Shown here: positions 25,138 to 53,398 of the stretch, one piece after another | How the letters are laid out: each line of letters opens with the position of its first letter | Position numbering within the stretch: the first letter of the stretch is position 1 | NCBI GenBank assembly: GCA_050250935.1 | Contig: JBFWNS010000001.1 | Location: 130,102 to 194,101 of the forward strand | Reading direction: 5' to 3' | DNA from: Candidatus Margulisiibacteriota bacterium | GTDB taxonomy: Bacteria; Margulisbacteria; Marinamargulisbacteria; JBFWNS01 | Length of the DNA stretch: 64,000 nucleotides | Notes under the pieces: generated by a model | The model's input: the letters and a program-made list of their open reading frames with translations, nothing else | Databases searched by the model: none | What the model was told of the DNA's origin: nothing | Translations under genes and position numbers: made by a program

Positions 25138-26346
25138 GTGGCTATGATACAGTATTCTCATCCGAATGGGCCAGAACTCTGGGGGATTTTTACCGTGTCT
25201 AAAAAAATTTTTATCAGTGCGATAGAGCCGTCCGCAGACCTGCATGGGTCCCATTTGGTCAAAGCCCTCCTTCGCCAAGACCCCGAGCTGATCTGCTACG
25301 GCTATGGTGGGCAGCACTTAAAGGCCACTGGCATTGCCATTTTAGATGACTTAACGGACCGCAGCACCATTGGATTTATCGAGCCTATTCGACATCTTTT
25401 TAGGTTTGCCATAGCCTATTTTCGTATTAAAAAAGAACTTCAAAAAACCAGGCCGGACTTGGTGGTGGTGATCGATGCGCAGGGATTTCACCTGCCTGTT
25501 TTAAAAGCCGCCAAAGCTCTGGGCCTAAAAACCGCCTATTTTATCACCCCCCAAGAATGGCATTGGGGCAGCGACGAAGGCGGCAAATCCGTGATTGCTG
25601 TAACCGATTTGTTGATTTGTATTTTTAAGCAAGAAGCCGAATTTTATTCGCGACTTGGGGGCCATGTAGCCTATGTGGGGCACCCGCTGGTGGATAGCGT
25701 GGTACCAAAGCTGTCCCCCGAAGCGTTGCGCAATACCCTAAACCTATCCCCTACCAAACCCATTCTGGCCATTTTTCCAGGGTCCCGAAAACAAGAGCTG
25801 GCCCTGACGGCTCCCGTGCTGCTGGAAGCCGCCAGTCTGATTTCCCGAAAAAAAGACATTCAACCTGTCATTTCGGTGGCCGCCCTGCATTTGGAACAAA
25901 AAATTCGTGCTTTGGCCATCGAGGCTCGACTGCCTTTTGCAACTTTTTATACCGGGGATTCGGCCAGCTTGATCCAAGCCGCGGATCTGTCTCTGACCAC
26001 TTCGGGCACCATTACCCTCGAGCATGCCATTTTAAAAAAACTAGCGGTGGTGGCCTATAAATTTTCGCCGCTGTCCTATCGAATCGCCAAATTTGTACTC
26101 CGTAAAAAACTAGAAAAACTTCGGTTTATGGCCCTGCCCAACATGCTGGCCGACGCCGAAATTTTTCCCGAATTTTTTCAAGACAAAGCCACAGCTTCGG
26201 CCCTAGCATCAACAGGATTGGCCCTTTTGGACGATGCAACCTTGCGCACCGAACGCCAATCCAAATTGGATGGACTACCGGCCCAACTGGGGGATCCTGG
26301 GGTTTTAGACCGGGCAGCAACAGCCTTGTTGACAACCCTTCACTAG
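25138..26346 (+). CDS. lpxB: Lipid-A-disaccharide synthase
   Basis: IFISAIEPSADLHG, ITPQEWHWG, PGSR and ALPNMLA motifs align with E. coli LpxB positions; exact start uncertain. Confidence 0.8.
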   Translation: MAMIQYSHPNGPELWGIFTVSKKIFISAIEPSADLHGSHLVKALLRQDPELICYGYGGQHLKATGIAILDDLTDRSTIGFIEPIRHLFRFAIAYFRIKKELQKTRPDLVVVIDAQGFHLPVLKAAKALGLKTAYFITPQEWHWGSDEGGKSVIAVTDLLICIFKQEAEFYSRLGGHVAYVGHPLVDSVVPKLSPEALRNTLNLSPTKPILAIFPGSRKQELALTAPVLLEAASLISRKKDIQPVISVAALHLEQKIRALAIEARLPFATFYTGDSASLIQAADLSLTTSGTITLEHAILKKLAVVAYKFSPLSYRIAKFVLRKKLEKLRFMALPNMLADAEIFPEFFQDKATASALASTGLALLDDATLRTERQSKLDGLPAQLGDPGVLDRAATALLTTLH

Positions 26347-29149: not shown

Positions 29150-29380
29150 TTAGGCTCTTGCCTGGTTTTTATCAGGGAAATTGGGCGAAAAACCCAGCTG
29201 TCCCGCAACTGTGAAGCGACTTCATAGAGCCTATCCCGATTTGACAGATGCAAGGCAAAGACAAGTAAAAAAACCGGAATTTAGCTACCTAAATGAGGAT
29301 TTTTTTAGCTTGGCTTTAACGCAGCAGATACAAATGCGGATAGTCTCCAGTGGAAGTAGCCTAGTCAGAATGCCTGAAAT
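29150..29380 (+). promoter_or_regulatory. Cobalamin (B12) riboswitch in the leader of the TonB-dependent receptor gene
   Basis: Core CAGGGAAATTGGGCGAAAAACCCAGCTGTCCCGCAACTGTGAAG (29173-29216) follows the conserved GGGAA...GGTG..AA..CC..GCTG.CCCGC.ACTGT pattern; B12-box-like TAGTCAGAATGCCTG at 29362-29376; ends about 50 nt before the btuB-like start. Boundaries approximate. Confidence 0.7.
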
Positions 29381-29427
29381 CAACCCCAATTTACCCCATG
29401 CCCGTGGATAGGCATTAAGGAGTTTTT

Positions 29428-31299
29428 ATGCGCGTAGACGTTGTGTTTAAGCAAGTCTTGCTTGCTGTTGTGTGTATGTGTTGGTCGGGGCTAGTGATGG
29501 CCCAAACCGAGCCCAGTATAGCGCTTCCCGAAACTGTGGTCAGTGCAACCAAGTTTCCAAGACTCAGTTCGCAAGTCGCCGAAGATGTGTTTGTGATCAC
29601 CTCGAAAAATATGGAAGCAGCCGGGGTTAAAAACATCAAACAAGCCTTGATGTTGGTTCCTGGCTTAACCGTTTCGGATACGGGCGGGGCAACGCCAACA
29701 ACCCTTTTCTTACATGGGTTTCAATCTTACCAAATTTTGGTCCTCAAAGACGGCATGCCCATCAACGACACCATTTCTCCGCAGCCCATTGCCTATTTGG
29801 ATTCGCTTTCCATCGATGATATTGATCGGGTCGAGGTGATGTTCAATTCCAAAAGTGTGCTCTATGGTAGCCAAGCCATGGCTGGCGTTATTCAAATTTT
29901 TTCGAATACCGACGCCAATCAGGTTCATTATGTTCAGGGCTGGGACCACGGCAAAACCTCGGCTCAACTTAGCCGGCAATTTGGCAGTGCCAAAGTCTCG
30001 TTTTCGGGCAGTTACGAAAACGATTGGCGGCAGTCTTCTTACATCAATACCAGCGAACGCGATCGCAAAGAGAGGTCTACTTTTTCGGCTTATGTTGAAA
30101 ATGACTTTGGCTTTTTTAAGGGGGCTTTCCGCTACAACAAGAACAAAGCTACTCTGGGCTTAGATCGTGCCGACTATGTCTATGTTGGCCCTGGCTATGC
30201 CGAGGTTCGCATCGACGATACCAACGACAACCTACAAACCGAACAAAATTTAACCTCCTTAAGCTTGGAAACCTCGGTTATCCCCCTCACCACCACGGTG
30301 TTACAAGGGAGCATTTCCAACATCACCCGCTTGGAACTGAACCAAGCCGATGAGGCATTGAACAGTAACGTGGTGTCTCAATTTTGGGGAGTGACCCGGC
30401 GCTTGGAACTGCGTAACGAAACCCTACTGTCTTCGGAATGGGCAGCCACCTATGGGTTTGACCTTCAAATCGAGGAAGGATCTTCGGATTATTGGCATCC
30501 GCTGTATCCCAGCTCTTTTCCAGCCCAATCGCAGGAAAGCCAAGGCTATTTTGGGCAACTGCAATACACCACGCCAGGCTTTGGGGTTTCGGCCGGGCAT
30601 CGGGTTCATATGGATCACACCCAGCACATTTTAAAAGCCTATTCTTTGGGCAGTTACTACCGGGTTGAAGCCTTGGATCTGTTGGTCAAACCCAGCATTG
30701 GCACCAGTTTCCGAGAAGCCGGCTTATTTGAGCGCTTTGATAGCTATACCGGAAACCCCGATTTTCAACCCGAAACCACCCTCTCCAAGGACCTGCTGTT
30801 GGAAAAACCCCTGGGACCCGTTGTCTTAAGCTGGCGTTGGTTTGAAAACCAGACCTCCAACCTGATTACCTATGATGATTTGAATACCTTCAAATACATC
30901 CAAAACACCGGTACCGCTATAGCAACCGGTCAAGACTATGCCCTATCCATTCGAAATCTCGGCCCGCTTCAGTTTTTAAAAGCGTCTTACACCCGTCTTT
31001 CTGCCAAAGACAAAACCATTTTGAAAACCCCAGACTGGCAGGCCAACTTAAATGGGGGATTCGTTTTCGATGCCTGGCGTTACGGTTTCGACGCTGCTTG
31101 GGTAGGCTCGCGCTTGGATTCGGCCAGCAAACCGTTGGACGCCTATTTTCAGCTTAATTTGCGCGGGGCTTATCAATGGGGCCCTCAAACGCAATTGGAA
31201 GTCATTTTGTTTAATGCCTTGAATTCCCATCACCAAGAGGTGTACGGATTTAACTCCCACGAACGCAATGTCTACTTTGGCATCAAGCAACAGTTTTAA
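29428..31299 (+). CDS. btuB: TonB-dependent outer-membrane receptor, BtuB-like (putative cobalamin transporter)
   Basis: Signal peptide, TonB-box-like ETVVSAT, plug-domain motifs, C-terminal ...GIKQQF; size (623 aa) and upstream B12 riboswitch support a BtuB-type role. Confidence 0.8.
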   Translation: MRVDVVFKQVLLAVVCMCWSGLVMAQTEPSIALPETVVSATKFPRLSSQVAEDVFVITSKNMEAAGVKNIKQALMLVPGLTVSDTGGATPTTLFLHGFQSYQILVLKDGMPINDTISPQPIAYLDSLSIDDIDRVEVMFNSKSVLYGSQAMAGVIQIFSNTDANQVHYVQGWDHGKTSAQLSRQFGSAKVSFSGSYENDWRQSSYINTSERDRKERSTFSAYVENDFGFFKGAFRYNKNKATLGLDRADYVYVGPGYAEVRIDDTNDNLQTEQNLTSLSLETSVIPLTTTVLQGSISNITRLELNQADEALNSNVVSQFWGVTRRLELRNETLLSSEWAATYGFDLQIEEGSSDYWHPLYPSSFPAQSQESQGYFGQLQYTTPGFGVSAGHRVHMDHTQHILKAYSLGSYYRVEALDLLVKPSIGTSFREAGLFERFDSYTGNPDFQPETTLSKDLLLEKPLGPVVLSWRWFENQTSNLITYDDLNTFKYIQNTGTAIATGQDYALSIRNLGPLQFLKASYTRLSAKDKTILKTPDWQANLNGGFVFDAWRYGFDAAWVGSRLDSASKPLDAYFQLNLRGAYQWGPQTQLEVILFNALNSHHQEVYGFNSHERNVYFGIKQQF

Positions 31300-32587
31300 C
31301 ACAACGCTTGCTGAAGCGCTGAACAAAAAAATTGGCCTCTACGAACTGTTTCAAATCGTCGAGGCCCTACCCGCCTTACCGGCCAGATCCGAACACATCC
31401 TCTTGGCCACCTTGCCTGGGGATGTGCACCGGCTGGGCACCCGCATTACCCAAGCTTTGCTTGAAAAGGCAGGGTGTCGGGTAGACGTGCACTGGGAAAT
31501 GACGCCCCAGGCCTTGACCCTCTATTTGGCAAACAACAACCCCACCCATATTGTGATGACCTGTTTTTTAACCGCCCAACTGGATTTTTTCGGGGCCTTG
31601 GTCCCCCAGTTGGTCCAAACACAGACTTGTTTGGTTTTGGGTGGATTTGCGTTTTCTCCCCGGACCTTGTCGACGCGATTTAGCACCTTGGCCCCTAAAA
31701 CCGTGCATCCCAAAAACGGCGTCGAAGCTGCGGGGTTTATTTTACAAGCCTGGCCCTTGCCTTGGGTTTCCAGCCTGACGTTTTCGCCAGATCTCGACAC
31801 TGATCGAAGCAAAAAATGCGCCCCGGTCGCGGTTCAAACCCCTTGCCTGCCCCATTCTTTTTCGCCCATCACCCAAACCGATTTTAACCTGGAAACCCTG
31901 TGGGATGCCATTAATCCACGAACCCTCTACAATTTGCATTTGGGCTTCAAGGGCAACCCGCATCAAGCCCAGGGGAATCCCCTGTTTACCGCAATAACAG
32001 AGCGGTTTAATCGCCTAAAACCCCTGGCACATCGGCTCTTTGAACCCCAGGCATTGTGGCAACATTTTAAAGCCAAAAGCAACCACGATCAGATTTGGGT
32101 GTATCCCGAAGCTTCGGCCCCAGTAAGCTGGGATTTCCCCCGAAAAAATGGGATTTGCCTTGCCGATTATCTGCGTCACGACACCGACGATTTTATCACC
32201 CTCATGGCTGTGACCATTGGAAAAGTCGCGGGAGACCACACCGAAACCCTGTTTCAGCAAGGCCGCTTTACCGACATGCTGTGCTGGCATGCCCTGACCG
32301 TTCAAAGTGCCGAAGCTTTGGCCGAAACCGTTCATGCCCAGTTGCGGCGTATGCACGGTGACGAAGACAGCCCCCCCGATGCCCAATCCCTGTGGGATGC
32401 CCGCTACACCGGCAAACGCTACAGCTTTGGCTACGCGGCTTGCCCCGATTTACGAGGACAGGCCCTATTTTTTAAGTTGCTAAAACCCGAAACCATCGGG
32501 ATTCATCTTTCCGAATCGATGATGATGAACCCCGAAGCTTCGGTGAATGCTCTGGTGTTTTACCACCCCGCTGCTGCCTATTTTTGA
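31268..32587 (+). CDS. Stand-alone cobalamin-binding protein resembling the B12-binding and AdoMet reactivation domains of methionine synthase (no catalytic barrels)
   Basis: N-terminal half has the B12-binding DxHxxG motif (LPGDVHRLG); C-terminal half ends ...RYSFGYAACPDL...IGIHLSESMMMNPEASVNALVFYHPAAAYF, the hallmark of the MetH activation domain. Start overlaps the receptor gene by 32 nt; no signal peptide. Confidence 0.7.
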   Translation: MSTLASSNSFNTTLAEALNKKIGLYELFQIVEALPALPARSEHILLATLPGDVHRLGTRITQALLEKAGCRVDVHWEMTPQALTLYLANNNPTHIVMTCFLTAQLDFFGALVPQLVQTQTCLVLGGFAFSPRTLSTRFSTLAPKTVHPKNGVEAAGFILQAWPLPWVSSLTFSPDLDTDRSKKCAPVAVQTPCLPHSFSPITQTDFNLETLWDAINPRTLYNLHLGFKGNPHQAQGNPLFTAITERFNRLKPLAHRLFEPQALWQHFKAKSNHDQIWVYPEASAPVSWDFPRKNGICLADYLRHDTDDFITLMAVTIGKVAGDHTETLFQQGRFTDMLCWHALTVQSAEALAETVHAQLRRMHGDEDSPPDAQSLWDARYTGKRYSFGYAACPDLRGQALFFKLLKPETIGIHLSESMMMNPEASVNALVFYHPAAAYF

Positions 32588-32852
32588 ATGGGGCTTGCGT
32601 CGCCCCCTCAACCGAAGCAAGTTCGGTTGAGCCTCCCCCTCACGCTGGCGCTGGGCCTTCGGCCATGGTCTGTTTTTTTGTACAGAGTCCTTTAGGCCCC
32701 TGCGGGGAGGGAAGACAAACTTGCTTTGGCTTCCCGATTCAAAAACGCTTGCCGTTTTTGTTTATAATTATACTGCCCCTGCGGGGAGGAAAGACAAACT
32801 TGCTTTGGCTTCCCGATTCAAAAACGCTTGCCGTTTTTGTTTATAATTTAAA
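32588..32852. repeat. Mosaic intergenic repeat cluster: ~135-bp element shared with 57019-57154 plus a ~79-bp near-perfect tandem duplication
   Basis: 32591-32725 is near-identical to 57019-57154, including GC hairpins and a hairpin+T-run; 32696-32769 and 32775-32848 are tandem copies differing at about one position. Confidence 0.8.
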
Positions 32853-32854
32853 CC

Positions 32855-35716
32855 CTACCGCCAATAGCGCCCTACGGTGATGTTGATTGTCTGATGGTCG
32901 GTGTCGTCGTTGAGCATGTACGAGGCGTTGCTGCCAAAGCTGAAGAGGCGGACGCCCATCATGTCGGCCCAAATATCCCCATCCATGACTTCAAAAAACT
33001 CACCTGTGCCATCGAAGGCCACATCGATTTTGTCCGTTTGACCCGAGCTGACCAAATCGTACCAAACCACCAATCGATAGCTGGAATTCCGGGACAAAAT
33101 GCTGTCGGTTTTGGTAAACGTGGGTAAGGTATAGCTGGATTGACGATTGCCGGCCAATACCGACTCCATAGATCCAAGACTGTACACCATCGACTGACTG
33201 GATGGTCCCGTCACGGGGGTTTTGGCACCGGCAGAGAAGAAATAGTCCGACCAAACACCGGCATCGGATCCACCCATTTTAAACAAGCCCACTTTCCATG
33301 TACCGGTTTGACCTACGCCAACCCGAGAACTTAGCGTCGATGGGAAGGTTACAGTCCCGTTCAACCCAATGCTCCACGGTGTGGCAGCCCCAACTTTAAA
33401 GCTGGTTCGGCTTTCAGCGCCTTGCCAAACCACACGTCCAGACGATTGCTCCACCAAGACGGGCATGATGTTGAGTTCGTAGGTGGTTTCGTAGTTGTTC
33501 CCGATATCGCGAACCGTACGGGCCAACTGCTGTTTCAACTGGAAGGAATTCCCTTGGATAAAGCGATTGTCTTGCCAAGAGCTCCAAATAAATTTCCATT
33601 TGTAGTTATCACCACTGGAATCCCAGCTTCCGGAGGGATTAAAGGTATTGTTGTTCCAATCCACTTTAATGGCCGAGAGCCCCAGGTTGATGGCATAGGC
33701 CAAGAAATAGCCATCGGGTACCGTACCAGTCGGTGTATCCCATTGCAGGTTGGGTTGGGCTTTATCCGTATCAACATCCACATCCATGGTTTGCATTTCA
33801 AACGTGTCGTCCCAGCCTGTGGCTTGTACTCTGGCCATGTCCATGCCCCGTGGGTTCCGCCAATTAATCAGGCCAATGCTGGGTTTCAAAATTCTGACCG
33901 TTGTTGATGTCAACACATTGTTGTCGGCATCCAGCACCTTAATCGTGGCCGTTCCCGAAATGTAATCCGTCACAAAGGTGGGGGTAAAGTCTCCAGAAAA
34001 ACCTGTATTTTGATAAGGCGAGATGATCCAGGTGACATCGAAAGGATTATCCAAGGCCTTTTTGGATTGAGCAGCATTAAATGCCGAAATGGCAACCAGG
34101 GATTGAGACGATCTTAACGCTTGGGGATTCCCAATCGATTGGGGGTTATTGCCAGCAGAAACGCGTTGGTATTCCACCGTTTGCGTTCCGGTCGAGGTGG
34201 GGTATTCCAAAACCACACGGGCAGCCGCTGCAGAAGCGTTTTCTGCATAAAGAACCACGCGAGAATCCAAGGCATCGGTGGGTTGCCAGTTGTTGTCCGA
34301 TACTTGTCTATAGGCCCGAACAGGAACCAAAGAGGTTTCAACAATGTAATAGCGCCCGGTTTGAATGCTTACAAAATTAATGGCCTTAAGCAATACAAAC
34401 GGATCAAAAACGGGGCCATCGTGGGTAAAAAACTCATTTCGAACCATCAGCGGCAAAGAACTTCCATCCAATAATCCTGCTTGAATCATGACGGCAATGG
34501 CCTGAGGAACCGTCATGGTTTGGCTTTCGGTAATGGGCAATGTCCACCGGTTGTTTTTGGGGAAAATAACCCGCATGGCCGGCATCGTCGTGGTATCGGA
34601 CGTCGCGGTGGCATCGTAAAAGGCGTATAACTTTCTAAGTTGTGAATTATCTTGATTCATAACCCCCAACATTTCTGCCTTAACATTAGCAACCGACCAA
34701 TAGTCCGACTTTAACTCCCCTTCTGGCAAACTCTCGTTAAACGCCTGGGCAAACTCGGCAATGGTTACCGTTACACCATTCAAATAGCCCGTTGCAAATT
34801 GCTCAATAAAAAATTCTGGTGGCACGCCAACCGAAGATCCGTCTTTGGATCCGCCACCACTTTTACCCCCAAAAATGGACCGAATAATTTGTTTGGCACG
34901 ATCTAGGGTTAAGGTCGCATTAACCTGAGAATCCAAAGCGGCTTGTTGGGCCAATTTTCGTAAATCATCGTCGTTTTGCAACTGCTCGACGATTAGTTTT
35001 TGGGTATCGTCGGGCGCAGGAAACACGTCTTTATTCACCGTAGCATCGGTGGTTGGCTTGACCGGAGACACCCGCTGAATTTCCCCAGAGCTGAGTTTTG
35101 AATTGATGGTATCGGTGATTTTTTGTGTCAATTCGTCGGACAAATCCCCGCTGAATTTATTCCCGTTTCCTTTGGCTACTTTTTCGACCACATAATCCAC
35201 AATAGCCCGGGTCTTTTCAGAGACGTTGGCCGACACGGCCGTTTCTCCGCTTTTAACGTTCACATAGGTGTCCATGCGCAACACGTTTTGGGCTCCGGAA
35301 GAATCTGTCCCTGTTTTGACAATCCCGACCACATATTTTTTACCGTCTGCTATATTTTTGAATTCGTAAGCGCCATCCACCACATTGGCTGTAATGCCCG
35401 TGGGAATAACAGTGCCATCAGATCCAATTTCATATAAAATGGCTGTCCCATCCGACAAAGTCGAAATGTCCGACAAATGTTTTGTGAAGGCTTGAGACAA
35501 CCTTTTGGACGACGACAAACTGCTAATCGAAGACACCGGATTGGTAATCCCCACCTGGCTTTGATCTTGAGCCGATGCAATGACATAGCCACTTAAGGTG
35601 GTGGCCCCCGCATAACTGGTGGTCGAGGTTGTCGACGTGGTGGATTCCGATGCTTTTCCACAGCCCCCCAAAGCCAAAATGAATATCAGCGGAACCGCTG
35701 CAAACCACGTTTTCAT
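32855..35716 (-). CDS. Large predicted lipoprotein of unknown function
   Basis: Start set at MKTWF (ATG 35716, GGAGGG RBS 7 nt upstream); lipobox LALGGC followed by Ser/Thr-rich linker; ~950 aa with no recognised catalytic motif. Confidence 0.6.
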   Translation of the reverse strand: MKTWFAAVPLIFILALGGCGKASESTTSTTSTTSYAGATTLSGYVIASAQDQSQVGITNPVSSISSLSSSKRLSQAFTKHLSDISTLSDGTAILYEIGSDGTVIPTGITANVVDGAYEFKNIADGKKYVVGIVKTGTDSSGAQNVLRMDTYVNVKSGETAVSANVSEKTRAIVDYVVEKVAKGNGNKFSGDLSDELTQKITDTINSKLSSGEIQRVSPVKPTTDATVNKDVFPAPDDTQKLIVEQLQNDDDLRKLAQQAALDSQVNATLTLDRAKQIIRSIFGGKSGGGSKDGSSVGVPPEFFIEQFATGYLNGVTVTIAEFAQAFNESLPEGELKSDYWSVANVKAEMLGVMNQDNSQLRKLYAFYDATATSDTTTMPAMRVIFPKNNRWTLPITESQTMTVPQAIAVMIQAGLLDGSSLPLMVRNEFFTHDGPVFDPFVLLKAINFVSIQTGRYYIVETSLVPVRAYRQVSDNNWQPTDALDSRVVLYAENASAAAARVVLEYPTSTGTQTVEYQRVSAGNNPQSIGNPQALRSSQSLVAISAFNAAQSKKALDNPFDVTWIISPYQNTGFSGDFTPTFVTDYISGTATIKVLDADNNVLTSTTVRILKPSIGLINWRNPRGMDMARVQATGWDDTFEMQTMDVDVDTDKAQPNLQWDTPTGTVPDGYFLAYAINLGLSAIKVDWNNNTFNPSGSWDSSGDNYKWKFIWSSWQDNRFIQGNSFQLKQQLARTVRDIGNNYETTYELNIMPVLVEQSSGRVVWQGAESRTSFKVGAATPWSIGLNGTVTFPSTLSSRVGVGQTGTWKVGLFKMGGSDAGVWSDYFFSAGAKTPVTGPSSQSMVYSLGSMESVLAGNRQSSYTLPTFTKTDSILSRNSSYRLVVWYDLVSSGQTDKIDVAFDGTGEFFEVMDGDIWADMMGVRLFSFGSNASYMLNDDTDHQTINITVGRYWR

Positions 35717-35876
35717 CTCTGTCCCTCCATTTTTGAAACTGTTTCGTTCATTATACATACTTCTTGCCCCTTTCCCAAAATTTTGAGGTTTTAAACCTGT
35801 TTTTTTAATCGAAAATTAGTTTTCTATTTGTGAAGGGGGATTCAAAAATGGTATTCTGATCCTCACTTTTACCCCT

Positions 35877-37723: not shown

Positions 37724-39063
37724 GCACACCCACCAACAAATTCTTTGTTTTGGATACCAACGTTTTAATCCACAACCCAGCGGCCTTGTACTCGTTTAGC
37801 GAACACACGGTTGTCTTGCCCATCACGGTGATTGAAGAACTCGACAAATTCAAAACCGCTTCCGATAAAAAAGGCATGCATGCCCGGCAAGTCATGCGCG
37901 AAATTGATGGCCTGGTTCGCAAAGGGGCTTTAAAAGAAGGGGCAAAAATCAAAACGGGTGGGAAATTACGCATTGCCCTATGTCCCGAAAAAAGTGTCCT
38001 TAGTTCTTTGGATCTGTCGGTGAATGACAATAAAATTTTAAACTGTGCCCTCTCGTTTTTGGCCCCAGGCAACACTGTTTTTTTTATCTCCAAAGATTTG
38101 AATTCCAGAATCAAGGCCGAGGCACTGGGCATTGTGGCCATGGACTACGAAAAAGAAAAAGTAGAATACACCTCGTTGTACCAGGGTTGGCGCGAGATAG
38201 CTCTGCCACAGGCCAGCATTGATGCGCTGTATAAAGACCATAAACTAGAGGTTAGCAAAACCAACTATTTGGACAACGAGTATTTTTGCATTAAATCTTT
38301 GGAAAACCCCAATACCTCCTGTCTGGCCAAATTTGATGCCCCTCACAATCAACTGGTGCCCATTCGGTCCCATTTCGAAGCCATGGGCGTTAAACCCGCC
38401 AACCTCGAACAACAATTTGCCTTCGATTTATTGCTCAACGACGCGGTGGTCTTGGTCAGTTTGGTGGGACAAGCAGGCACAGGGAAAACCCTGATTGCCC
38501 TGGCCTGCGGCCTTCAACAGGTGCTGGGCAAATCCCCCAAATACGAAAAATTACTGGTGGCCAGACCCATTATGCCCATGGGCAAAGACATTGGCTATTT
38601 ACCTGGTACCAAAGACCAAAAGCTTAATTATTGGATGCAGCCTATTTTCGACAACCTGAATTTTATTATGCACAAAGACGAAACCCCAGAAGACGAACAG
38701 CCCCGTTATAAAAAGGCCGAAAAGTTCGACAAAATCGACTACCTTCTGGAATCTCAGTTGCTTGAAATCGAAGCCCTCACCTATATTCGGGGTCGCAGTA
38801 TTCCCAACCAATTTATCATTATTGATGAGGCCCAAAATCTGACCCCTCACGAAATCAAAACCATCATTTCCCGAGCCGGCAAAGGCACCAAAATTGTCCT
38901 GACTGGCGATGCCGAACAAATCGACAACCCCTATTTGGATGCCAATTCCAACGGACTCAGCTACACCGCCGAACACCTCAAAGGCCAACACATTACCGGC
39001 CACATGTTTTTGTCCAAAAGCGAGCGCTCGCCTTTGGCAACCTTGGCGGCAGAGATGTTATAG
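37720..39063 (+). CDS. PhoH2-type protein (N-terminal PIN domain fused to PhoH-like ATPase)
   Basis: PIN start FVLDTNVLIH; Walker A GQAGTGKT; Walker B FIIIDEAQN; typical PhoH2/YlaK architecture. Confidence 0.8.
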   Translation: MSTPTNKFFVLDTNVLIHNPAALYSFSEHTVVLPITVIEELDKFKTASDKKGMHARQVMREIDGLVRKGALKEGAKIKTGGKLRIALCPEKSVLSSLDLSVNDNKILNCALSFLAPGNTVFFISKDLNSRIKAEALGIVAMDYEKEKVEYTSLYQGWREIALPQASIDALYKDHKLEVSKTNYLDNEYFCIKSLENPNTSCLAKFDAPHNQLVPIRSHFEAMGVKPANLEQQFAFDLLLNDAVVLVSLVGQAGTGKTLIALACGLQQVLGKSPKYEKLLVARPIMPMGKDIGYLPGTKDQKLNYWMQPIFDNLNFIMHKDETPEDEQPRYKKAEKFDKIDYLLESQLLEIEALTYIRGRSIPNQFIIIDEAQNLTPHEIKTIISRAGKGTKIVLTGDAEQIDNPYLDANSNGLSYTAEHLKGQHITGHMFLSKSERSPLATLAAEML

Positions 39064-41091
39064 GGCGTTAAAACTCTCCATCTTTTTTCGCATTGCGTTA
39101 GTCAGTCGAAATCCTGGCATCTGCAGACCTCGTTTAAGACAATCGGACAATGCCGTTTTGACACTGGGGGGATACTTTGCCAAAGGCGCCATCGCAACCT
39201 CAAAATGCATCAAATGAAATTCCCAATATTTCCCCACAATAGCCTTAATAAAAGGAGGGGCATCGGAGACCATAACCGCATTATAAATCTCTTTTAGATG
39301 ACCTTCCAAGTGGGCTAGATAAGCCTTTTGCTCTGGGGAAAGTTGCGTTGTATTTTTTCCAAACGTGGCTTTTAAATACTCCCCTGCATCAAAGATCAAT
39401 TGATGGACACAAAACAACAGACGATTAAAGAGTTCCTCAAGATACTGATAGGCCGTTTGAATCTGCACCTCTCTATCGGATGTGGGTTGTTCAGCACCCC
39501 ATTGTTTAAACTGATCCGAAACCATTGAAAAAGCCCGCTTTAAAGCAACTTTATAGGCCATCGTAAGATCCGGCACGAGGATTTGTTGGGAACCAACCTT
39601 ATACGAACGGTATTCATAGGCCACATTTTGGGTCCCATAAAGTGCAAAACACAGGGTCTTTAAACTAACGTTTGGGGATTGACTTAACCGATCCAAATAT
39701 CGTTCTGGACAAAAATCTCTGAGGGTTGTTGCCAAAGTTGCAAAAACACCTGCATAGACATACTCAAAACGTTGCCCAATTTCTGGAGGCAAGGAAACCA
39801 GTTCAGGTTCCCTTTGGTAGCAAGCTATAACCCGTACCCATCGACCCTGAGGTGTTTCTTGGACTGCCACAACCGCGCGATTGGTATAATCGCTGATACT
39901 ATTTCCCCGTTGATCGGTTTCTTCCACCCCAAATTTGGTTCGACCTGCAGATTGCATATGGTTTCTGGTAAGCGCAGGATTACGGGGGTGGCTTCGTTCC
40001 ACAAATTTTACATTCGACTGACAACTATCCTGGGGTTTTACCACCACAGTTGGACAGGCAAACTCCTGACCGGGGACCAAAAATTTGGAATCAGGGTTGG
40101 GAAAACCAGGAAAGTATCGTTTCGCTTCTACCCCATTGAAACACTGGGCCAAAACCGGGACATTGGGATACAGCATATGGGCAGGATCAAATTCTACAGG
40201 GTTCACGCCATAACGGGTCTGTGCCAACAGTAACCGTTGCATCCCTTTAGGCCACTGATATCCAAAAACCCGAACATCGCCATCTTCTGTGGCTCTAGGA
40301 GATGCAGTATAAACATACTCGAATCTGGGCGTCGTTGACTTGGGTAGCTGTTGCCGAAAATCAGTCTGGGTTGGGAAAAGGGCCCGAAACGATTCAGAAG
40401 TCGTACGCCTTGGGAGAGGCGCAGAAGTTGTCAGGCGGTGTTGGGGGTCCACCGATGGGGCCAGGCTTGCCAAAATACCCTCGTGGGCTCCAAAACGAAG
40501 TAAAGATTCTCCCAGATCTTGAACTTCACAGATCAATGGCCTTCCAGCTTGATCTTTATAATCAACCACCATCACAACCGTATCCCCAACCTGCCATGGC
40601 ACGGGCACAAAATCGGCATCCACCATGGCTTCTGGCCTTCGAGATCTCTCGATAAACGCCTGCAAAACGCTACTTTTCGCCAGATTGTCCGGATGAATCT
40701 CAAACCGAGATCCATCTCGCAGGGCTTGCAAAGGGTCAGCCCCTGCCCGAAGTAAGGCATCTTCGTAGTTAGAGCCTCGACACCCATACAGCACCTCATG
40801 TAAGGGTGTATGCCCTGCTTGATCTGATTGAAGATGAAACAAGGGCGTTCCATAGTATCGCTTTAACAGCAACACCAATTTCTGAAACCGTTCAGGGGCC
40901 AATCGTTCTCGTATGGCCTGAATCAGTAATAACAGTGGATTTAGTCTGGATTGTAGCGTTCTTAATACGAGATTAAGATCGCGGGGATTTTGGCTGTCTC
41001 GAGTCGCCTGTACCAATGCTAATTGGAATACCGTCAAAGCATCGGGTCCGCCTACTGCAGGTTGAATCGAGACATATTTGTAAACACCCAT
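39058..41091 (-). CDS. Hypothetical 677-aa protein with at least one ankyrin-repeat-like motif
   Basis: AGHTPLHEVLYGCRGSNYEDALLRAGADP matches the ankyrin consensus; no signal peptide; local composition looks more AT-rich than the flanking housekeeping genes; 3' end overlaps PhoH2 by 6 nt in convergent orientation. Confidence 0.5.
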   Translation of the reverse strand: MGVYKYVSIQPAVGGPDALTVFQLALVQATRDSQNPRDLNLVLRTLQSRLNPLLLLIQAIRERLAPERFQKLVLLLKRYYGTPLFHLQSDQAGHTPLHEVLYGCRGSNYEDALLRAGADPLQALRDGSRFEIHPDNLAKSSVLQAFIERSRRPEAMVDADFVPVPWQVGDTVVMVVDYKDQAGRPLICEVQDLGESLLRFGAHEGILASLAPSVDPQHRLTTSAPLPRRTTSESFRALFPTQTDFRQQLPKSTTPRFEYVYTASPRATEDGDVRVFGYQWPKGMQRLLLAQTRYGVNPVEFDPAHMLYPNVPVLAQCFNGVEAKRYFPGFPNPDSKFLVPGQEFACPTVVVKPQDSCQSNVKFVERSHPRNPALTRNHMQSAGRTKFGVEETDQRGNSISDYTNRAVVAVQETPQGRWVRVIACYQREPELVSLPPEIGQRFEYVYAGVFATLATTLRDFCPERYLDRLSQSPNVSLKTLCFALYGTQNVAYEYRSYKVGSQQILVPDLTMAYKVALKRAFSMVSDQFKQWGAEQPTSDREVQIQTAYQYLEELFNRLLFCVHQLIFDAGEYLKATFGKNTTQLSPEQKAYLAHLEGHLKEIYNAVMVSDAPPFIKAIVGKYWEFHLMHFEVAMAPLAKYPPSVKTALSDCLKRGLQMPGFRLTNAMRKKMESFNAL

Positions 41092-48424: not shown

Positions 48425-49240
48425 TTATTTTACATGGATTGAATTCAAAAACAACACCCCTTTGGCGTTGAGTGCGTGCCCGGATCCGATGCCCACAACA
48501 TGGCCGCGGATGCGTCGGCCCAAAATCGCAAAATCGCCGATCATGTCCAAGACTTTGTGGCGGGCCAGTTCGTCTGGAAACCGCAACGGGTTTAGGTAGC
48601 CGTCGTCTTTGATGATGACTGCGTTGTCCAAGCTGCCGCCTTGGGCCAGGCCTTTTTCCAGCAAATGGGCCACTTCGTGGTAAAAGCCATAGGTGCGGGC
48701 TGGGGCAATGTCTTGGATAAACGATTCTGGGCTGTCCAACACCGAGGCCACTTGGGTGCCAATAAAGGTGTCGGGATAGGACAAGACATAGGTGAAACGG
48801 GGTTCTGAACTGGGAATAAACAGGATTTTCTTATCCCCATCTTCGATAAAACCAGGGGTTGTAATCACCTGTTCTGGCCAAGGGGTTTCTTGATTTTTAA
48901 GTCCGGCCTTTACAAAGGCCTCCACAAACGCGTTTGCACTGCCATCCACAACGGGTACTTCGGGATGGTCCAATTCGACCCGAAGATTGGCTATACACAA
49001 CCCATAACAGGCCGCCAAAAAATGTTCTGGGGTTTGGACCCTGGCCCCTGCTTTTTCGAGCAAGGTTGCCCGGGCCGTATGAGCCAAAGCATCGGGACGC
49101 ACCGGAACCGCTTGCCCGGCAACCTCGAACACAAGTCCTGTCCCCACTGGGGCTGGATGGACCCTACACGTGTTGGCTTTTCCGCTGTGAATGCCGATCC
49201 CATGGATGGCGAAGGACTCGGCTACGGTGTGCTGTTTCAC
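48425..49240 (-). CDS. lpxC: UDP-3-O-acyl-N-acetylglucosamine deacetylase
   Basis: ARTYGF, HKVLDMIGDF and SGHALN motifs at LpxC-typical positions. Confidence 0.85.
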   Translation of the reverse strand: MKQHTVAESFAIHGIGIHSGKANTCRVHPAPVGTGLVFEVAGQAVPVRPDALAHTARATLLEKAGARVQTPEHFLAACYGLCIANLRVELDHPEVPVVDGSANAFVEAFVKAGLKNQETPWPEQVITTPGFIEDGDKKILFIPSSEPRFTYVLSYPDTFIGTQVASVLDSPESFIQDIAPARTYGFYHEVAHLLEKGLAQGGSLDNAVIIKDDGYLNPLRFPDELARHKVLDMIGDFAILGRRIRGHVVGIGSGHALNAKGVLFLNSIHVK

Positions 49241-51735: not shown

Positions 51736-52321
51736 TCACAAACGCACAGCGTTTGTGATGGATTGTATACACAAACGACAAGCGTTTGTGGGTCGCAGCG
51801 TTGAAGTAAATTCAACGCCGCTCCCGCTGCGCGGCCTCCGTTCCAGCCTTTTCCAGAGAAACGGATACTCCGTTACAGGGATAATGGGGCTAAAAAAATG
51901 GATTATAAGCTCGATTGCCAGCGAAGCGAAGCAGTTTCAGATTGTATTCACAAACGCACAGCGTTTGTGGGTCGGAACATTGAAGCAAGTTCAATCTTCC
52001 TCCCGCTGCGCGGCTTCTGTTCCAGCTTTTTCCAGCGAAACTGTTCCTCCGTTCCAGAGATAAGGGGGCTAAAAAAATGGATTATAAACCGATTGCCAGC
52101 GAAGCGAAGCAATCCCAAACCGCGCTAAGCGTTAAGTGTTGGTCTTACCCCCTCCAATCGGGAGGGGGCAGGGGGTGGGGAACCTTATTAGCGAAATGTC
52201 CGAAACCCCATCCAGCCGAAGGCTGCGTGGGTGAGTTTTGAGCGTAAAAGCACAGGTGGGGGGTCCTAGGGGGGCACCTCGCGCAGCGTGGTTCCCCCCT
52301 AGGCGTTAAGCGACGCTTACC
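51736..52321. repeat. Convergent-intergenic repeat cluster: two ~179-bp tandem units with CACAAACG-N5-CGTTTGTG palindromes, followed by GC-rich hairpins
   Basis: Units at ~51761-51939 and ~51940-52118; each has a palindrome, a TTGAA-N5-TTCAA hairpin whose loop varies between copies, and GGGGCTAAAAAAATGGATTATAA; then hairpins ccccctcc/ggagggggg (52147-52170) and cctagggggg...cccccctagg (52264-52303). Confidence 0.8.
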
Positions 52322-53380
52322 CTACCACTCCAAAGTCCCAGTCTGATACTCCTTCACCCGTCCTTCAAAGAAGTTCACTTCAATCATATTCCCTTGGGTC
52401 AATTCATCGATCCAAGGATACGGATTCGTCGCATTCCAAACCTTAGGCAAGCCAATGGCCGCCAAGCGTTGGTCCCCAATAAATTGGAGATACTCTTTCA
52501 TGTTATCGCCAGTAATCCCCAAAATGCCATCACCAATGCAAGACAATCCCCATTCATATTCCATTTGAACGGCATCTTTAACGTTTTGGATAATGAGATC
52601 TTGGAGCTCTTGGGTCCACAACTCGGGCTGCTCTTCTCGAATGCCGTTAATGATGTTCACAAACAAAGCCACGTGCAAATCTTCGTCGCGGTTGATGAAC
52701 TGGATCATCTCTTTGCTGCCGGGCATTTTGTTATTTCGGCCAAAATTGTAGAAAATTAAGAAGGCGCTAAAGAAAAACACCCCTTCCAAAATCAGGTTGG
52801 TGGTGCAGGCTTCTAGGAACAACTTGTCGTTATCCAAAGTGCCCGTTTTGAAGCCAGGAAAGGCAATTTTAGAGACTGATCTTAAAACCGTTTTGTTTTT
52901 GTAGAACAACCCTTTGTCTTTACGGTACAGCCCGTACACTTCTTCAGCATCAAAGCCCAAGGCTTCGATCATACAAGAATAGGAATCAACGTGAAGCGCC
53001 TCTTCGTAGATTTGCCTGGCCAAAGCCAAACAAACCTCTGGGCTGGTGATTTGGGGTTTGATCAATTCAGACAAGGTCTTGGTGAGCAATCCATCCAAAT
53101 TGGAGGCAAAGGCCAAGGCGCGCATGAAAGCATTCTTTTCGGTTTCGGTGAGCTTGTTGTTGTACCATTGCTCGTAGTCGGTTTGGAAAGGAATTTCTTC
53201 GGCAACCCAGTTGTTCCGTTGCATTTTTTTGAAAATGTCCCGGGCCCAAGGGTGTTTGAGGGGGCTGGCTTGCATCAATCCATCGTCAAACCCGTTGATG
53301 ATGCGGCGTTTGTTGATGATGTCGGCGTTGCTCATGGGGGAGTCTGTAAATTCGCCTTGAAAAAGTTCACTAATAGACAT
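52322..53380 (-). CDS. nrdB: Ribonucleoside-diphosphate reductase beta subunit (class I)
   Basis: 352 aa; diiron ligand pattern (E...EALH...E...EGVFFF...EDLH). Confidence 0.9.
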   Translation of the reverse strand: MSISELFQGEFTDSPMSNADIINKRRIINGFDDGLMQASPLKHPWARDIFKKMQRNNWVAEEIPFQTDYEQWYNNKLTETEKNAFMRALAFASNLDGLLTKTLSELIKPQITSPEVCLALARQIYEEALHVDSYSCMIEALGFDAEEVYGLYRKDKGLFYKNKTVLRSVSKIAFPGFKTGTLDNDKLFLEACTTNLILEGVFFFSAFLIFYNFGRNNKMPGSKEMIQFINRDEDLHVALFVNIINGIREEQPELWTQELQDLIIQNVKDAVQMEYEWGLSCIGDGILGITGDNMKEYLQFIGDQRLAAIGLPKVWNATNPYPWIDELTQGNMIEVNFFEGRVKEYQTGTLEW

Positions 53381-53398
53381 GGTTTACCTCGCTTTTTT

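What the first reader, a model, noticed from the sequence alone, without database searches (positions are those of the whole stretch)
29428..32587. B12 riboswitch-controlled BtuB-like receptor translationally coupled to a stand-alone MetH-fragment (B12-binding plus reactivation domain) protein
The 439-aa ORF downstream of the BtuB-like receptor has the DxHxxG cobalamin-binding motif followed by the reactivation-domain hallmark (RYSFGYAACPDL ... VFYHPAAAYF), but no homocysteine or methyltetrahydrofolate barrels, so it cannot be a methionine synthase. Its start overlaps the receptor gene by 32 nt and both sit behind a cobalamin riboswitch. This suggests a cytoplasmic B12-binding or B12-conditioning partner of an outer-membrane importer, an arrangement I do not recognise from characterised btuB loci.
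Basis: partly seen in the sequence, partly recalled or inferred. Interest (0 to 1): 0.7.

Follow-up and report, generated by a model that had tools for sequence, protein, structure and literature searches.

The report
B12 receptor paired with MetH-derived protein
In this Margulisbacteria genome, a vitamin-B12 riboswitch controls an outer-membrane B12 receptor gene that overlaps a gene for a free-standing copy of the B12-binding and reactivation half of methionine synthase; the pair is conserved in related uncultured bacteria and may be an undescribed B12-handling step, but no function has been tested.

Summary
A 623-aa TonB-dependent receptor (29428-31299) overlaps by 32 nt a 439-aa ORF (31268-32587) that has only the cobalamin-binding (DxHxxG intact) and AdoMet/reactivation domains of MetH. 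It has no Hcy or folate barrels and only a remnant of the Cap.

The riboswitch is real but misses Rfam's thresholds. It carries a 150-nt hairpin insertion, and its true span is 29170-29379.

New here:
- The ORF belongs to a small clade (14 clusters among 1.84 billion representatives) separate from MetH C-halves (98/100 bootstrap).
- In 10 of 11 family loci examined, the gene sits directly behind a TonB receptor or a BtuG-like lipoprotein. This holds for 0 of 79 full-length metH loci.
- All 7 available leaders carry the same cobalamin-riboswitch core.
- Domain constraint is inverted relative to MetH: Cob 22% and Act 40% pairwise identity, against 51% and 35% in MetH.

Best reading (confidence about 0.45): a cytoplasmic cobalamin capture or conditioning protein that is made together with the receptor when B12 is scarce and uses MetH's cofactor-loading and reductive-methylation chemistry. 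The main rival (about 0.25) is the C-half of a split methionine synthase. That rival could not be excluded, because only 64 kb of the genome was available.

I classify it as a new variant of a known kind. No description was found in the searched literature.

The parts
29170..29379 (+). Cobalamin riboswitch aptamer. Closing helix TATCAGG (29170-76) pairs with CCTGAAA (29373-79). P4 hairpin TGGGCGAAAAACCCA (29182-96). Conserved core GCTGTCCCGCAACTGT (29197-212). B12-box AGTCAGAATGC (29363-73).
   Evidence: Rfam AdoCbl RF01482 scores 29.7 bits, below its gathering score. CM R1, built from six relatives only, gives one hit in the window, 37.4 bits, E about 3.5e-10. The core and the box motif each occur once in the window. 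Three helices are kept with compensatory changes in 7 of 7 leaders.
29213..29362 (+). 150-nt insertion that folds as one long irregular hairpin, at the position of the short (17-25 nt) variable hairpin of the relatives' aptamers. It contains the pseudo 3' half and the U-run that Rfam's model aligned to.
   Evidence: MFE -43.4 kcal/mol, z=-4.08, 1 of 200 shuffles folds as well, and its ends pair. The core-to-box gap is 150 nt here against 17-25 nt in relatives.
29380..29427 (+). Expression platform and 5' UTR, with Shine-Dalgarno AAGGAG at 29417-29422. The switching mechanism is not resolved.
   Evidence: Sequence read directly. The box-to-ATG distance of 55 nt is within the relatives' range of 47-71 nt.
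29428..31299 (+). TonB-dependent outer-membrane receptor, BtuB-like (623 aa). It has a signal peptide, a TonB-box-like ETVVSAT, a Plug domain and a C-terminal aromatic residue.
   Evidence: Pfam Plug 1e-20. TIGR01779 TonB-B12 matches full length at 2e-41 but below its cut-off. Top PDB hits are E. coli BtuB. It is homologous (20-30% identity) to the receptors upstream of the other family members.
31268..31299 (+). 32-nt overlap of the two ORFs. No Shine-Dalgarno sequence lies before the second ATG.
   Evidence: Relatives overlap by 1-23 nt or are separated by 5-15 nt.
31268..32587 (+). Stand-alone Cob:Act protein (439 aa), a paralogue of the C-half of MetH.
   Evidence: AF2 model has pLDDT 84 and pTM 0.86. 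Best structural match is the Thermus MetH Cob+Act fragment 8SSE/8SSD at TM 0.83, followed by E. coli 1K7Y/3IVA/3BUL. NCBI name: 'vitamin B12 dependent-methionine synthase activation domain-containing protein'.
31280..31366 (+). Two N-terminal helices (aa 5-33), the only remnant of the MetH Cap domain.
   Evidence: AF2 secondary structure. No PF02607 hit. tblastn aligns window aa 15 onward with the stretch of full-length MetH just before its Rossmann domain.
31394..31747 (+). Cobalamin-binding Rossmann domain (aa 43-160). DxHxxG lies at aa 52-57 (nt 31421-31438) and GG at aa 125-126.
   Evidence: PF02310 at 29.4 bits, below its gathering score. PDB alignment. Motif table.
31880..32584 (+). AdoMet-binding activation (reactivation) domain (aa 205-439). 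RxxxGY lies at aa 384-389 (nt 32417-32434).
   Evidence: PF02965 1e-30. R384, G388, Y389, C392, P393, H433, P434, Y438 and F439 are invariant in the family.
32696..32848 (+). 79-bp tandem duplication. Each copy ends in a terminator-like hairpin (CAAAAACGCTTGCCGTTTTTG followed by T-rich sequence). It may be the operon terminator.

Best explanation
The locus is a B12-scarcity operon. A cobalamin riboswitch represses it when corrinoid is plentiful. When B12 is scarce, the cell makes an outer-membrane BtuB-type receptor together with a cytoplasmic protein that consists of MetH's cobalamin-binding and AdoMet/activation domains only.

The protein lacks the Hcy and folate barrels and has only a remnant of the Cap. 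I infer that it sits by default in MetH's 'Act-on' state, which is the state in which MetH loads cobalamin and reductively methylates it. In this reading it captures incoming cobalamin base-off and, using AdoMet and a reductant such as flavodoxin or ferredoxin, converts it to methylcobalamin. It would then hold the cofactor or hand it on. That makes it a B12 trap or conditioner, not a methionine synthase.

Shown: the anatomy, the reality of the riboswitch, the conserved gene pairing, the distinct clade, the intact AdoMet motifs and the inverted domain constraint. Inferred: repression by B12, B12 and AdoMet binding, methylation, hand-off and the cytoplasmic location (no signal peptide).
For: Domain content and fold are those of the MetH C-half.

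Mendoza et al. 2023 (PMC10567725) show that the apo Cap:Cob:Act module of MetH is Act-on, and that it takes up cobalamin His-off/base-off in that state.

The gene directly follows a TonB receptor or a BtuG-like lipoprotein in 10 of 11 family loci. This holds for 0 of 79 full-length metH loci.

All 7 available receptor leaders carry the same cobalamin-riboswitch core. In two relatives a lipoprotein with weak similarity to BtuG lies between the receptor and the Cob:Act gene, or directly upstream of it.

The family is a separate clade from MetH C-halves, with 98/100 bootstrap support.

Constraint is inverted. Pairwise identity is Cob 22% and Act 40% in the family, against 51% and 35% in MetH. The lower-ligand His is lost in 3 of 14 members while RxxxGY/ACP is invariant. 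This fits a Cob domain that no longer has to dock on the Hcy, folate and Cap modules, and a state in which His is off the cobalt.

Regulatory logic, from my own knowledge (Rodionov/Vitreschak 2003): B12 riboswitches repress uptake, synthesis and B12-independent isozymes. They are not known to repress metH.

Precedent for an upper-ligand enzyme tied to uptake and MetH-dependent growth: BtuR in E. coli (PMC11841063).
Against: Nothing was tested biochemically.

The operon has no inner-membrane transporter, reductase or client enzyme. One true family member (P0001) lacks the receptor context.

The rest of the genome could not be inspected. I do not know whether a full metH, an N-half-only metH, metE or any other B12 enzyme is present. 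The 64-kb window has none of these.

The predicted Act-on domain arrangement may only reflect AlphaFold's training on MetH fragments.

Loss of the His in some members could also mean that those members no longer bind B12 at all.
Confidence: 0.45

Rival explanations
1. The ORF is the C-half of a split methionine synthase. A separately encoded Hcy:Fol (possibly with Cap) N-half docks on this Cob:Act subunit in trans, and together they act as MetH.
For: Split MetH enzymes exist. Price et al. 2018 (PMC5764234) describe a three-part enzyme in Phaeobacter and note that PF02965 can be a separate protein. Other truncated architectures appear in the searches; for example P0196 is Fol+Cap+Cob+Act without Hcy on a 178-kb contig. 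The window protein keeps DxHxxG and all AdoMet motifs. The human enzyme is described as a catalytic N-half plus a cobalamin C-half (PMC13376404 abstract).
Against: No N-half was found in 203 kb of window plus family loci, although that is a small fraction of each genome. The Cob domain is far less constrained than in MetH (22% against 51% pairwise identity). The catalytically essential His is lost in 3 of 14 members. Only a remnant of the Cap remains. Repressing a B12-dependent methionine synthase subunit when B12 is plentiful runs against known B12-riboswitch logic (my own knowledge). The tight, specific linkage is to an uptake receptor, not to methionine or folate genes.
Confidence: 0.25
2. 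It is a trans-acting reactivation or loading factor for another corrinoid enzyme, for example a MetH that lacks its own activation domain. In that case its own Cob domain would serve mainly as a docking or scaffold module.
For: A stand-alone activation protein is known: Thermotoga TM0269 (PDB 1J6R), which appears among the structural matches. The Act domain is the most conserved part of the family and the Cob domain is degenerating.
Against: Eleven of 14 members keep the DxH motif. The domain is retained at full length in every member, which argues that it is used. This reading does not explain the linkage to the receptor and the riboswitch better than the best explanation does.
Confidence: 0.12
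3. It is a passive B12 store or a B12/AdoMet sensor without chemistry. It would buffer or report intracellular cobalamin, as B12-binding-domain regulators do.
For: B12-binding Rossmann domains serve as sensors in other proteins; photocobilin and MerR-type B12 domains are among the weaker structural matches. The gene is co-regulated with uptake.
Against: There is no DNA-binding or signalling output domain. The residues that bind AdoMet and cap the cobalt (RxxxGY, ACP, HP..YF) are strictly conserved, which points to catalysis.
Confidence: 0.08
4. It is a decaying remnant of a metH gene broken by insertion of a receptor gene, or an assembly artefact.
For: The Cob domain is diverged and falls below Pfam's threshold.
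Against: The ORF is intact. The same architecture is found in 14 deeply diverged clusters (26-37% identity) on independent assemblies, with conserved Act motifs and conserved gene order. No N-half remnants lie upstream.
Confidence: 0.02

Closest known systems
C-terminal half of cobalamin-dependent methionine synthase MetH. This corresponds to the laboratory fragments E. coli 649-1227 (PDB 1K7Y, 3BUL, 3IVA) and Thermus Cap:Cob:Act (8SSD, 8SSE).
   Same: Same two domains in the same order. DxHxxG, GG and RxxxGY/ACP motifs are present. The predicted fold superposes at TM 0.83 on 8SSE and 0.74-0.76 on the E. coli reactivation-state fragments.
   Different: It is a natural free-standing gene, not part of a 1,100-1,250-aa enzyme. 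The Cap is reduced to two helices. It forms a separate clade (98/100 bootstrap). The Cob domain is much less conserved than in MetH. It is encoded behind a B12 receptor under a riboswitch.
Split methionine synthases: the three-part MetH/MtgCDE of Phaeobacter and Ruegeria (PMC5764234, PMC12478193), and Thermotoga MetH plus TM0269.
   Same: MetH modules are encoded as separate polypeptides. PF02965 can be a separate protein.
   Different: The known splits are Cap+Cob without Act, reactivated by RamA-like proteins, or Act alone. I found no description of a Cob+Act unit without Cap. Those genes sit with methionine or one-carbon genes, not with a TonB receptor.
Accessory B12-binding proteins of Bacteroides uptake loci: BtuG, BtuH and BtuJ next to BtuB under cobalamin riboswitches.
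   Same: These are extra B12-handling proteins co-transcribed with a BtuB-type receptor. Two relatives of this locus also encode a lipoprotein with weak similarity to BtuG (E about 1e-4 to BtuG structures).
   Different: Those proteins are surface-exposed lipoproteins with unrelated folds. This one has no signal peptide and keeps an AdoMet site, so it should act in the cytoplasm.
Enzymes and chaperones that set the upper ligand after uptake: the corrinoid adenosyltransferases BtuR/CobA/PduO, and eukaryotic MMACHC/MMADHC, which deliver cobalamin to methionine synthase.
   Same: The proposed role is the same: processing and escorting incoming cobalamin, linked to uptake (PMC11841063; PMC13376404 abstract).
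   Different: There is no sequence or fold relationship. The proposed chemistry is methylation by AdoMet, not adenosylation or dealkylation. The analogy is functional only and untested.
Cobalamin riboswitches (Rfam clan CL00101: RF00174, RF01482, RF01689).
   Same: It has the conserved core, a B12-box and helices that are kept through compensatory changes. It lies upstream of a B12 transporter gene.
   Different: All seven leaders of this group score below the Rfam gathering scores. The window's copy has a 150-nt hairpin inserted where relatives have 17-25 nt.

Membership tests
Cobalamin-dependent methionine synthase MetH (EC 2.1.1.13) | Homocysteine-binding barrel (PF02574) | tested here: not met
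   No Pfam hit in the ORF. There is no N-half similarity in the window or in the family loci.
Cobalamin-dependent methionine synthase MetH (EC 2.1.1.13) | Methyltetrahydrofolate (pterin)-binding barrel (PF00809) | tested here: not met
   No Pfam hit. tblastn finds nothing.
Cobalamin-dependent methionine synthase MetH (EC 2.1.1.13) | Four-helix Cap domain (PF02607) | tested here: not met
   No Pfam hit. Only about 40 residues, forming two helices, precede the Rossmann domain.
Cobalamin-dependent methionine synthase MetH (EC 2.1.1.13) | Cobalamin-binding Rossmann domain with DxHxxG...GG | tested here: met
   The motifs are present. The domain aligns with MetH structures. The PF02310 score is 29.4, below the gathering score of 32.1.
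Cobalamin-dependent methionine synthase MetH (EC 2.1.1.13) | Activation domain with the AdoMet motif RxxxGY (PF02965) | tested here: met
   PF02965 E=1e-30, 107.6 bits against a cut-off of 25. The motif is invariant in the family.
Cobalamin-dependent methionine synthase MetH (EC 2.1.1.13) | Methionine synthase activity; binding of cobalamin and AdoMet | not testable with these tools
   This needs biochemistry.
Split methionine synthase (C-half subunit) | A separately encoded Hcy:Fol partner in the same genome | tested here: inconclusive
   None is present in the 64-kb window or in 203 kb of window plus family loci.
Cobalamin riboswitch (Rfam CL00101) | Score at or above an Rfam gathering threshold | tested here: not met
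   No hit at the gathering score. RF01482 scores 29.7 against 50. Relatives score 23.8-42.4 bits, all below their gathering scores.
Cobalamin riboswitch (Rfam CL00101) | Conserved core and B12-box, with helices supported by covariation, in the leader of a B12-related gene | tested here: met
   The core and the box each occur once in the window, both in this leader. An independent CM scores 37.4 bits, E about 3.5e-10. H1, P4 and the P6 base are kept with compensatory changes in 7 of 7 leaders. The CM finds no hit in the 79 metH control loci.
Cobalamin riboswitch (Rfam CL00101) | Binds a corrinoid and switches expression; ligand selectivity | not testable with these tools
   The expression platform is not resolved. 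This needs in-line probing or ITC, plus reporter assays.
BtuB, TonB-dependent vitamin B12 receptor (TIGR01779 / NF007926) | Plug domain plus 22-strand barrel, with a score above the equivalog cut-off | tested here: not met
   The Plug domain matches at 1e-20. TIGR01779 aligns full length but scores 142 bits against a cut-off of 599.7. It is best described as BtuB-like. B12 specificity is inferred from the riboswitch and from the best hits.
Stand-alone Cob:Act family defined here (window ORF plus P0001-4, 47-50, 53, 56, 57, 145, 186) | About 390-475 aa, no complete Cap, Cob+Act only, and clustering apart from MetH C-halves | tested here: met
   Profile search of 1.84 billion representatives. 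NJ bipartition supported in 98 of 100 bootstraps.
Stand-alone Cob:Act family defined here (window ORF plus P0001-4, 47-50, 53, 56, 57, 145, 186) | Located directly downstream of a TonB-dependent receptor or BtuG-like gene | tested here: met
   The window and 9 of 10 other family loci examined show this. The control is 0 of 79 metH loci.

The most novel reading that the evidence does not exclude
Margulisbacteria and related uncultured bacteria have a dedicated cytoplasmic cobalamin chaperone-enzyme that evolved from the C-half of MetH. It would take up newly imported corrinoid in the base-off mode, reductively methylate it with AdoMet, and deliver methylcobalamin to client enzymes. That would be a bacterial counterpart of the eukaryotic MMACHC/MMADHC trafficking step, and a natural protein fixed in MetH's cofactor-loading/reactivation conformation. 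It is co-regulated with the outer-membrane receptor by a riboswitch.
Probability: 0.3. Interest if true: 0.8.

Novelty: new variant of a known kind. Interest (0 to 1): 0.6.

Why it matters
How bacteria handle cobalamin between the inner membrane and its client enzymes is largely unknown. The best-known cytoplasmic step is adenosylation.

A conserved, riboswitch-controlled pairing of a B12 receptor with a MetH-derived Cob:Act protein points to a testable second route, methylation or escort. It would also give structural biologists a natural, small protein that may be held in the conformation in which methionine synthase loads and reactivates its cofactor.

The locus also adds an uptake-operon architecture outside Proteobacteria and Bacteroidota. 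It shows a cobalamin-riboswitch subgroup that current Rfam thresholds miss.

If the protein turns out to be one half of a split methionine synthase, it would still be a new split point. It would also be an unusual case of B12-repressed MetH.

Tried and rejected
- The genome-contig scan with the family alignment was swamped by full-length MetH from Bryobacterales and others.
- The second homologue search with the 14-member profile returned few new members because of the candidate cap.
- P0116 (514 aa) was first taken as a family member. It clusters with MetH and has no receptor context, so I dropped it.
- The first NJ run had invalid distances from an over-large cap. I repeated it with a valid cap and got the same result.
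- Plain MFE folding of the leader did not recover the aptamer. Rfam's alignment of the window leader used a look-alike 3' half inside the insertion; I replaced it after comparison with relatives.
- An automated helix extraction picked the wrong GAAA anchor and was redone.
- Taxon names for the other family contigs could not be obtained.
- Literature searches for this gene pair, for PF02965 contexts, and for Margulisbacteria B12 or methionine metabolism found nothing relevant.
- I looked by eye for a kissing-loop or anti-SD expression platform in the window and found nothing convincing.


Full report
SOURCE AND ANATOMY

Exact-sequence look-up places the window in a 'Candidatus Margulisiibacteriota' metagenome-assembled genome (NCBI MGE4169236-38, contig 576 kb).

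The first has a Shine-Dalgarno AAGGAG at 29417-22. The second has none, so translational coupling is a reasonable inference but is not shown.

The first ORF is a TonB-dependent receptor:
- Plug domain, E=1e-20.
- Its best family match is the B12 receptor model TIGR01779, aligned over the full length but far below the equivalog cut-off (142 bits against 599.7).
- Its best solved relatives are E. coli BtuB.

'BtuB-like' is therefore fair. B12 specificity rests mainly on the riboswitch.

THE 439-AA PROTEIN

- It matches PF02965 (activation domain) at 1e-30.
- It matches PF02310 (B12-binding) at 29.4 bits, just under the threshold.
- It aligns with residues 749-1175 of Thermus MetH.
- It carries D52-x-H54-x-x-G57, G125-G126, R384-xxx-G388-Y389, ACP and the C-terminal HP..YF.
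- There is no Hcy barrel, no pterin barrel and no Cap domain. Two short helices precede the Rossmann fold.
- An AlphaFold model (pLDDT 84, pTM 0.86) superposes as a whole on the Thermus Cob+Act fragment (8SSE, TM 0.83), then on the E. coli 649-1227 fragments solved in the reactivation conformation. The domain arrangement may be biased by AlphaFold's training set.
- It is not the tail of a broken metH. The upstream gene is an intact receptor, and MetH N-halves find nothing in the window or in 15 related loci (203 kb in total).

THE RIBOSWITCH

No Rfam family reaches its gathering score in the window. A sensitive scan gives AdoCbl RF01482 at 29.7 bits against a gathering score of 50.

The element is nevertheless real:
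- The leaders of the receptor genes in six related loci each give a cobalamin-clan hit at the same place, at 23.8-42.4 bits, all below their gathering scores.
- All share a 16-nt core, GCTGTCSCGCARCYGT. It occurs once per leader and nowhere else in the window or in the other loci fetched.
- A covariance model built from the six relatives alone finds exactly one hit in the 64 kb, at this leader (37.4 bits, rough E of 3.5e-10).
- The same model finds nothing in 79 metH control loci.

Comparison with relatives also corrects the boundaries:
- The true B12-box (AGTCAGAATGC, 29363-73) and the 3' strand of the closing helix lie 150 nt downstream of the core.
- The intervening 29213-29362 folds into one long hairpin (z=-4.1), where relatives have 17-25 nt.
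- With this reading, three helices are kept in 7 of 7 leaders with compensatory changes, for example CTG/CAG in the window against CCG/CGG elsewhere.
- The box-to-ATG distance (55 nt) then falls within the relatives' range.
- The aptamer is therefore 29170-29379.
- How it switches expression, and which corrinoid form it prefers, I could not determine.

A CONSERVED FAMILY AND GENE PAIR

A profile search of 1.84 billion cluster representatives finds 14 clusters with the same architecture (about 390-475 aa, Cob+Act, no complete Cap), at 26-37% identity to the window protein. In a neighbour-joining tree they separate from MetH C-halves in 98 of 100 bootstraps.

Of the 11 family loci whose context I could read:
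- Ten have a TonB-dependent receptor, or a lipoprotein with weak similarity to Bacteroides BtuG structures (E about 1e-4), immediately upstream. The genes overlap by 1-32 nt or are 5-15 nt apart.
- The exception is P0001.

In 79 full-length metH loci with 8-kb flanks (1.08 Mb), no such receptor is found. The receptors are as diverged from one another (20-30% identity) as the Cob:Act proteins are. The pair is therefore old rather than recently spread.

Only two members carry a taxon name, and both are Margulisbacteria.

CONSTRAINT PATTERN

In full-length MetH the Cob domain is the better conserved part: 51% mean pairwise identity, against 35% for Act. In this family the order is reversed: Cob 22%, Act 40%.

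The cobalt-ligating His is kept in 11 of 14 members, including the window protein. It is lost in P0001, P0004 and P0186. The AdoMet and cobalt-capping motif is invariant.

I read this as a Cob domain freed from having to dock on the Hcy, folate and Cap modules, working only with its Act domain. In that state MetH has the His off the cobalt. This is established for the reactivation complex, and seen again in the Thermus cofactor-loading structure (PMC10567725).

MECHANISM

Best reading (confidence about 0.45): at low B12 the riboswitch allows expression of both the receptor and a cytoplasmic cobalamin acceptor. The acceptor uses MetH's loading and reductive-methylation chemistry to capture and condition incoming corrinoid.

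- The riboswitch, the gene pairing, the domain content and the conservation pattern are shown.
- Repression by B12, ligand binding, methylation and hand-off are inferred.

Main rival (about 0.25): the C-half of a split methionine synthase.
- Split forms exist (PMC5764234, PMC12478193).
- I could not inspect the rest of the genome.
- The 64-kb window has no metH N-half, metE, btuCDF or cob genes. It does encode a class I (B12-independent) ribonucleotide reductase.
- Against the rival: the relaxed Cob domain, the loss of His in some members, the reduced Cap, the specific linkage to uptake genes, and the odd logic of repressing a B12-dependent enzyme subunit when B12 is abundant (that last point is my own knowledge of B12 regulons).

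Lesser rivals are a trans-acting reactivase for another corrinoid enzyme, a store or sensor, and a gene remnant. The comparative data contradict the remnant reading.

COMPARISON AND NOVELTY

The protein works most like the MetH C-half, and it is clearly derived from it. It fails three of the five domain criteria for MetH membership.

Its operon resembles the accessory-protein-rich B12 uptake loci of Bacteroides. Those accessories are surface lipoproteins of unrelated fold.

NCBI annotates it only as an 'activation domain-containing protein'. Six literature searches found no description of this family or this gene pair.

I rate it a new variant of a known kind, with interest 0.6. It is a well-supported comparative-genomic lead whose function still has to be tested.

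Noticed in passing
window 32696-32848: A 79-bp tandem duplication (two copies, 99% identical) lies in the gap between the Cob:Act ORF and the convergent 967-aa ORF. Each copy ends in the terminator-like hairpin CAAAAACGCTTGCCGTTTTTG. A 3-mismatch relative of the hairpin lies at 51770-51790 (-).
   Followed up: partly
window 29213-29362: The 150-nt insertion inside the riboswitch contains a look-alike of the aptamer's 3' half (TTGACAGATGC, 29242-52, which can also pair with GCAACTGT) and a hairpin followed by a U-run. Whether this competes with the true 3' half as part of the switch is unknown.
   Followed up: partly
window 32855-35758 (-) and 39058-41091 (-): Two large ORFs (967 aa and 677 aa) have no Pfam match. 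The 967-aa ORF has a lipoprotein-type signal (LALGGC) and a Ser/Thr-rich start.
   Followed up: no
window 52322-56134 (-): Class I ribonucleotide reductase, large and small subunits (B12-independent). So at least this B12-replaceable function does not need the vitamin here.
   Followed up: no
window 61793-63484 (-); 25138-26346 (+); 48425-49240 (-): An S-layer-homology-domain protein lies in the same window as lpxB and lpxC. This fits a diderm envelope, in which a TonB-dependent receptor makes sense.
   Followed up: no
L002 4865-5995; L005 47-1189: In two relatives a beta-propeller lipoprotein sits directly upstream of the Cob:Act gene; in L002 it lies between the receptor and that gene. The L002 protein is weakly similar to Bacteroides BtuG structures (E about 1e-4), and the L005 protein is 29% identical to it. 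The window lacks this gene.
   Followed up: partly
proteins P0058, P0059, P0079, P0085, P0146: Short proteins (230-260 aa) carry the family-specific start of the activation domain (W..I.NRTL..LHLG[FY]). They could be stand-alone activation-domain versions of this family, or fragments cut at contig ends.
   Followed up: no
proteins P0196, P0005, P0023: Other truncated MetH architectures occur on long contigs: Fol+Cap+Cob+Act without the Hcy barrel (849 aa on a 178-kb contig) and Cap+Cob+Act alone (503 aa on a 204-kb contig). These hint at more ways of splitting MetH than have been described.
   Followed up: no
L089 3462-4697; L095 3276-4601; P0003 contig: An MFS transporter gene lies upstream of the receptor, on the opposite strand, in three relatives. 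It is directly adjacent in two of them; in L095 two other genes intervene. An ATP-synthase operon lies nearby in two. The window has ilvD there instead. Whether the MFS protein is the missing inner-membrane step was not examined.
   Followed up: no
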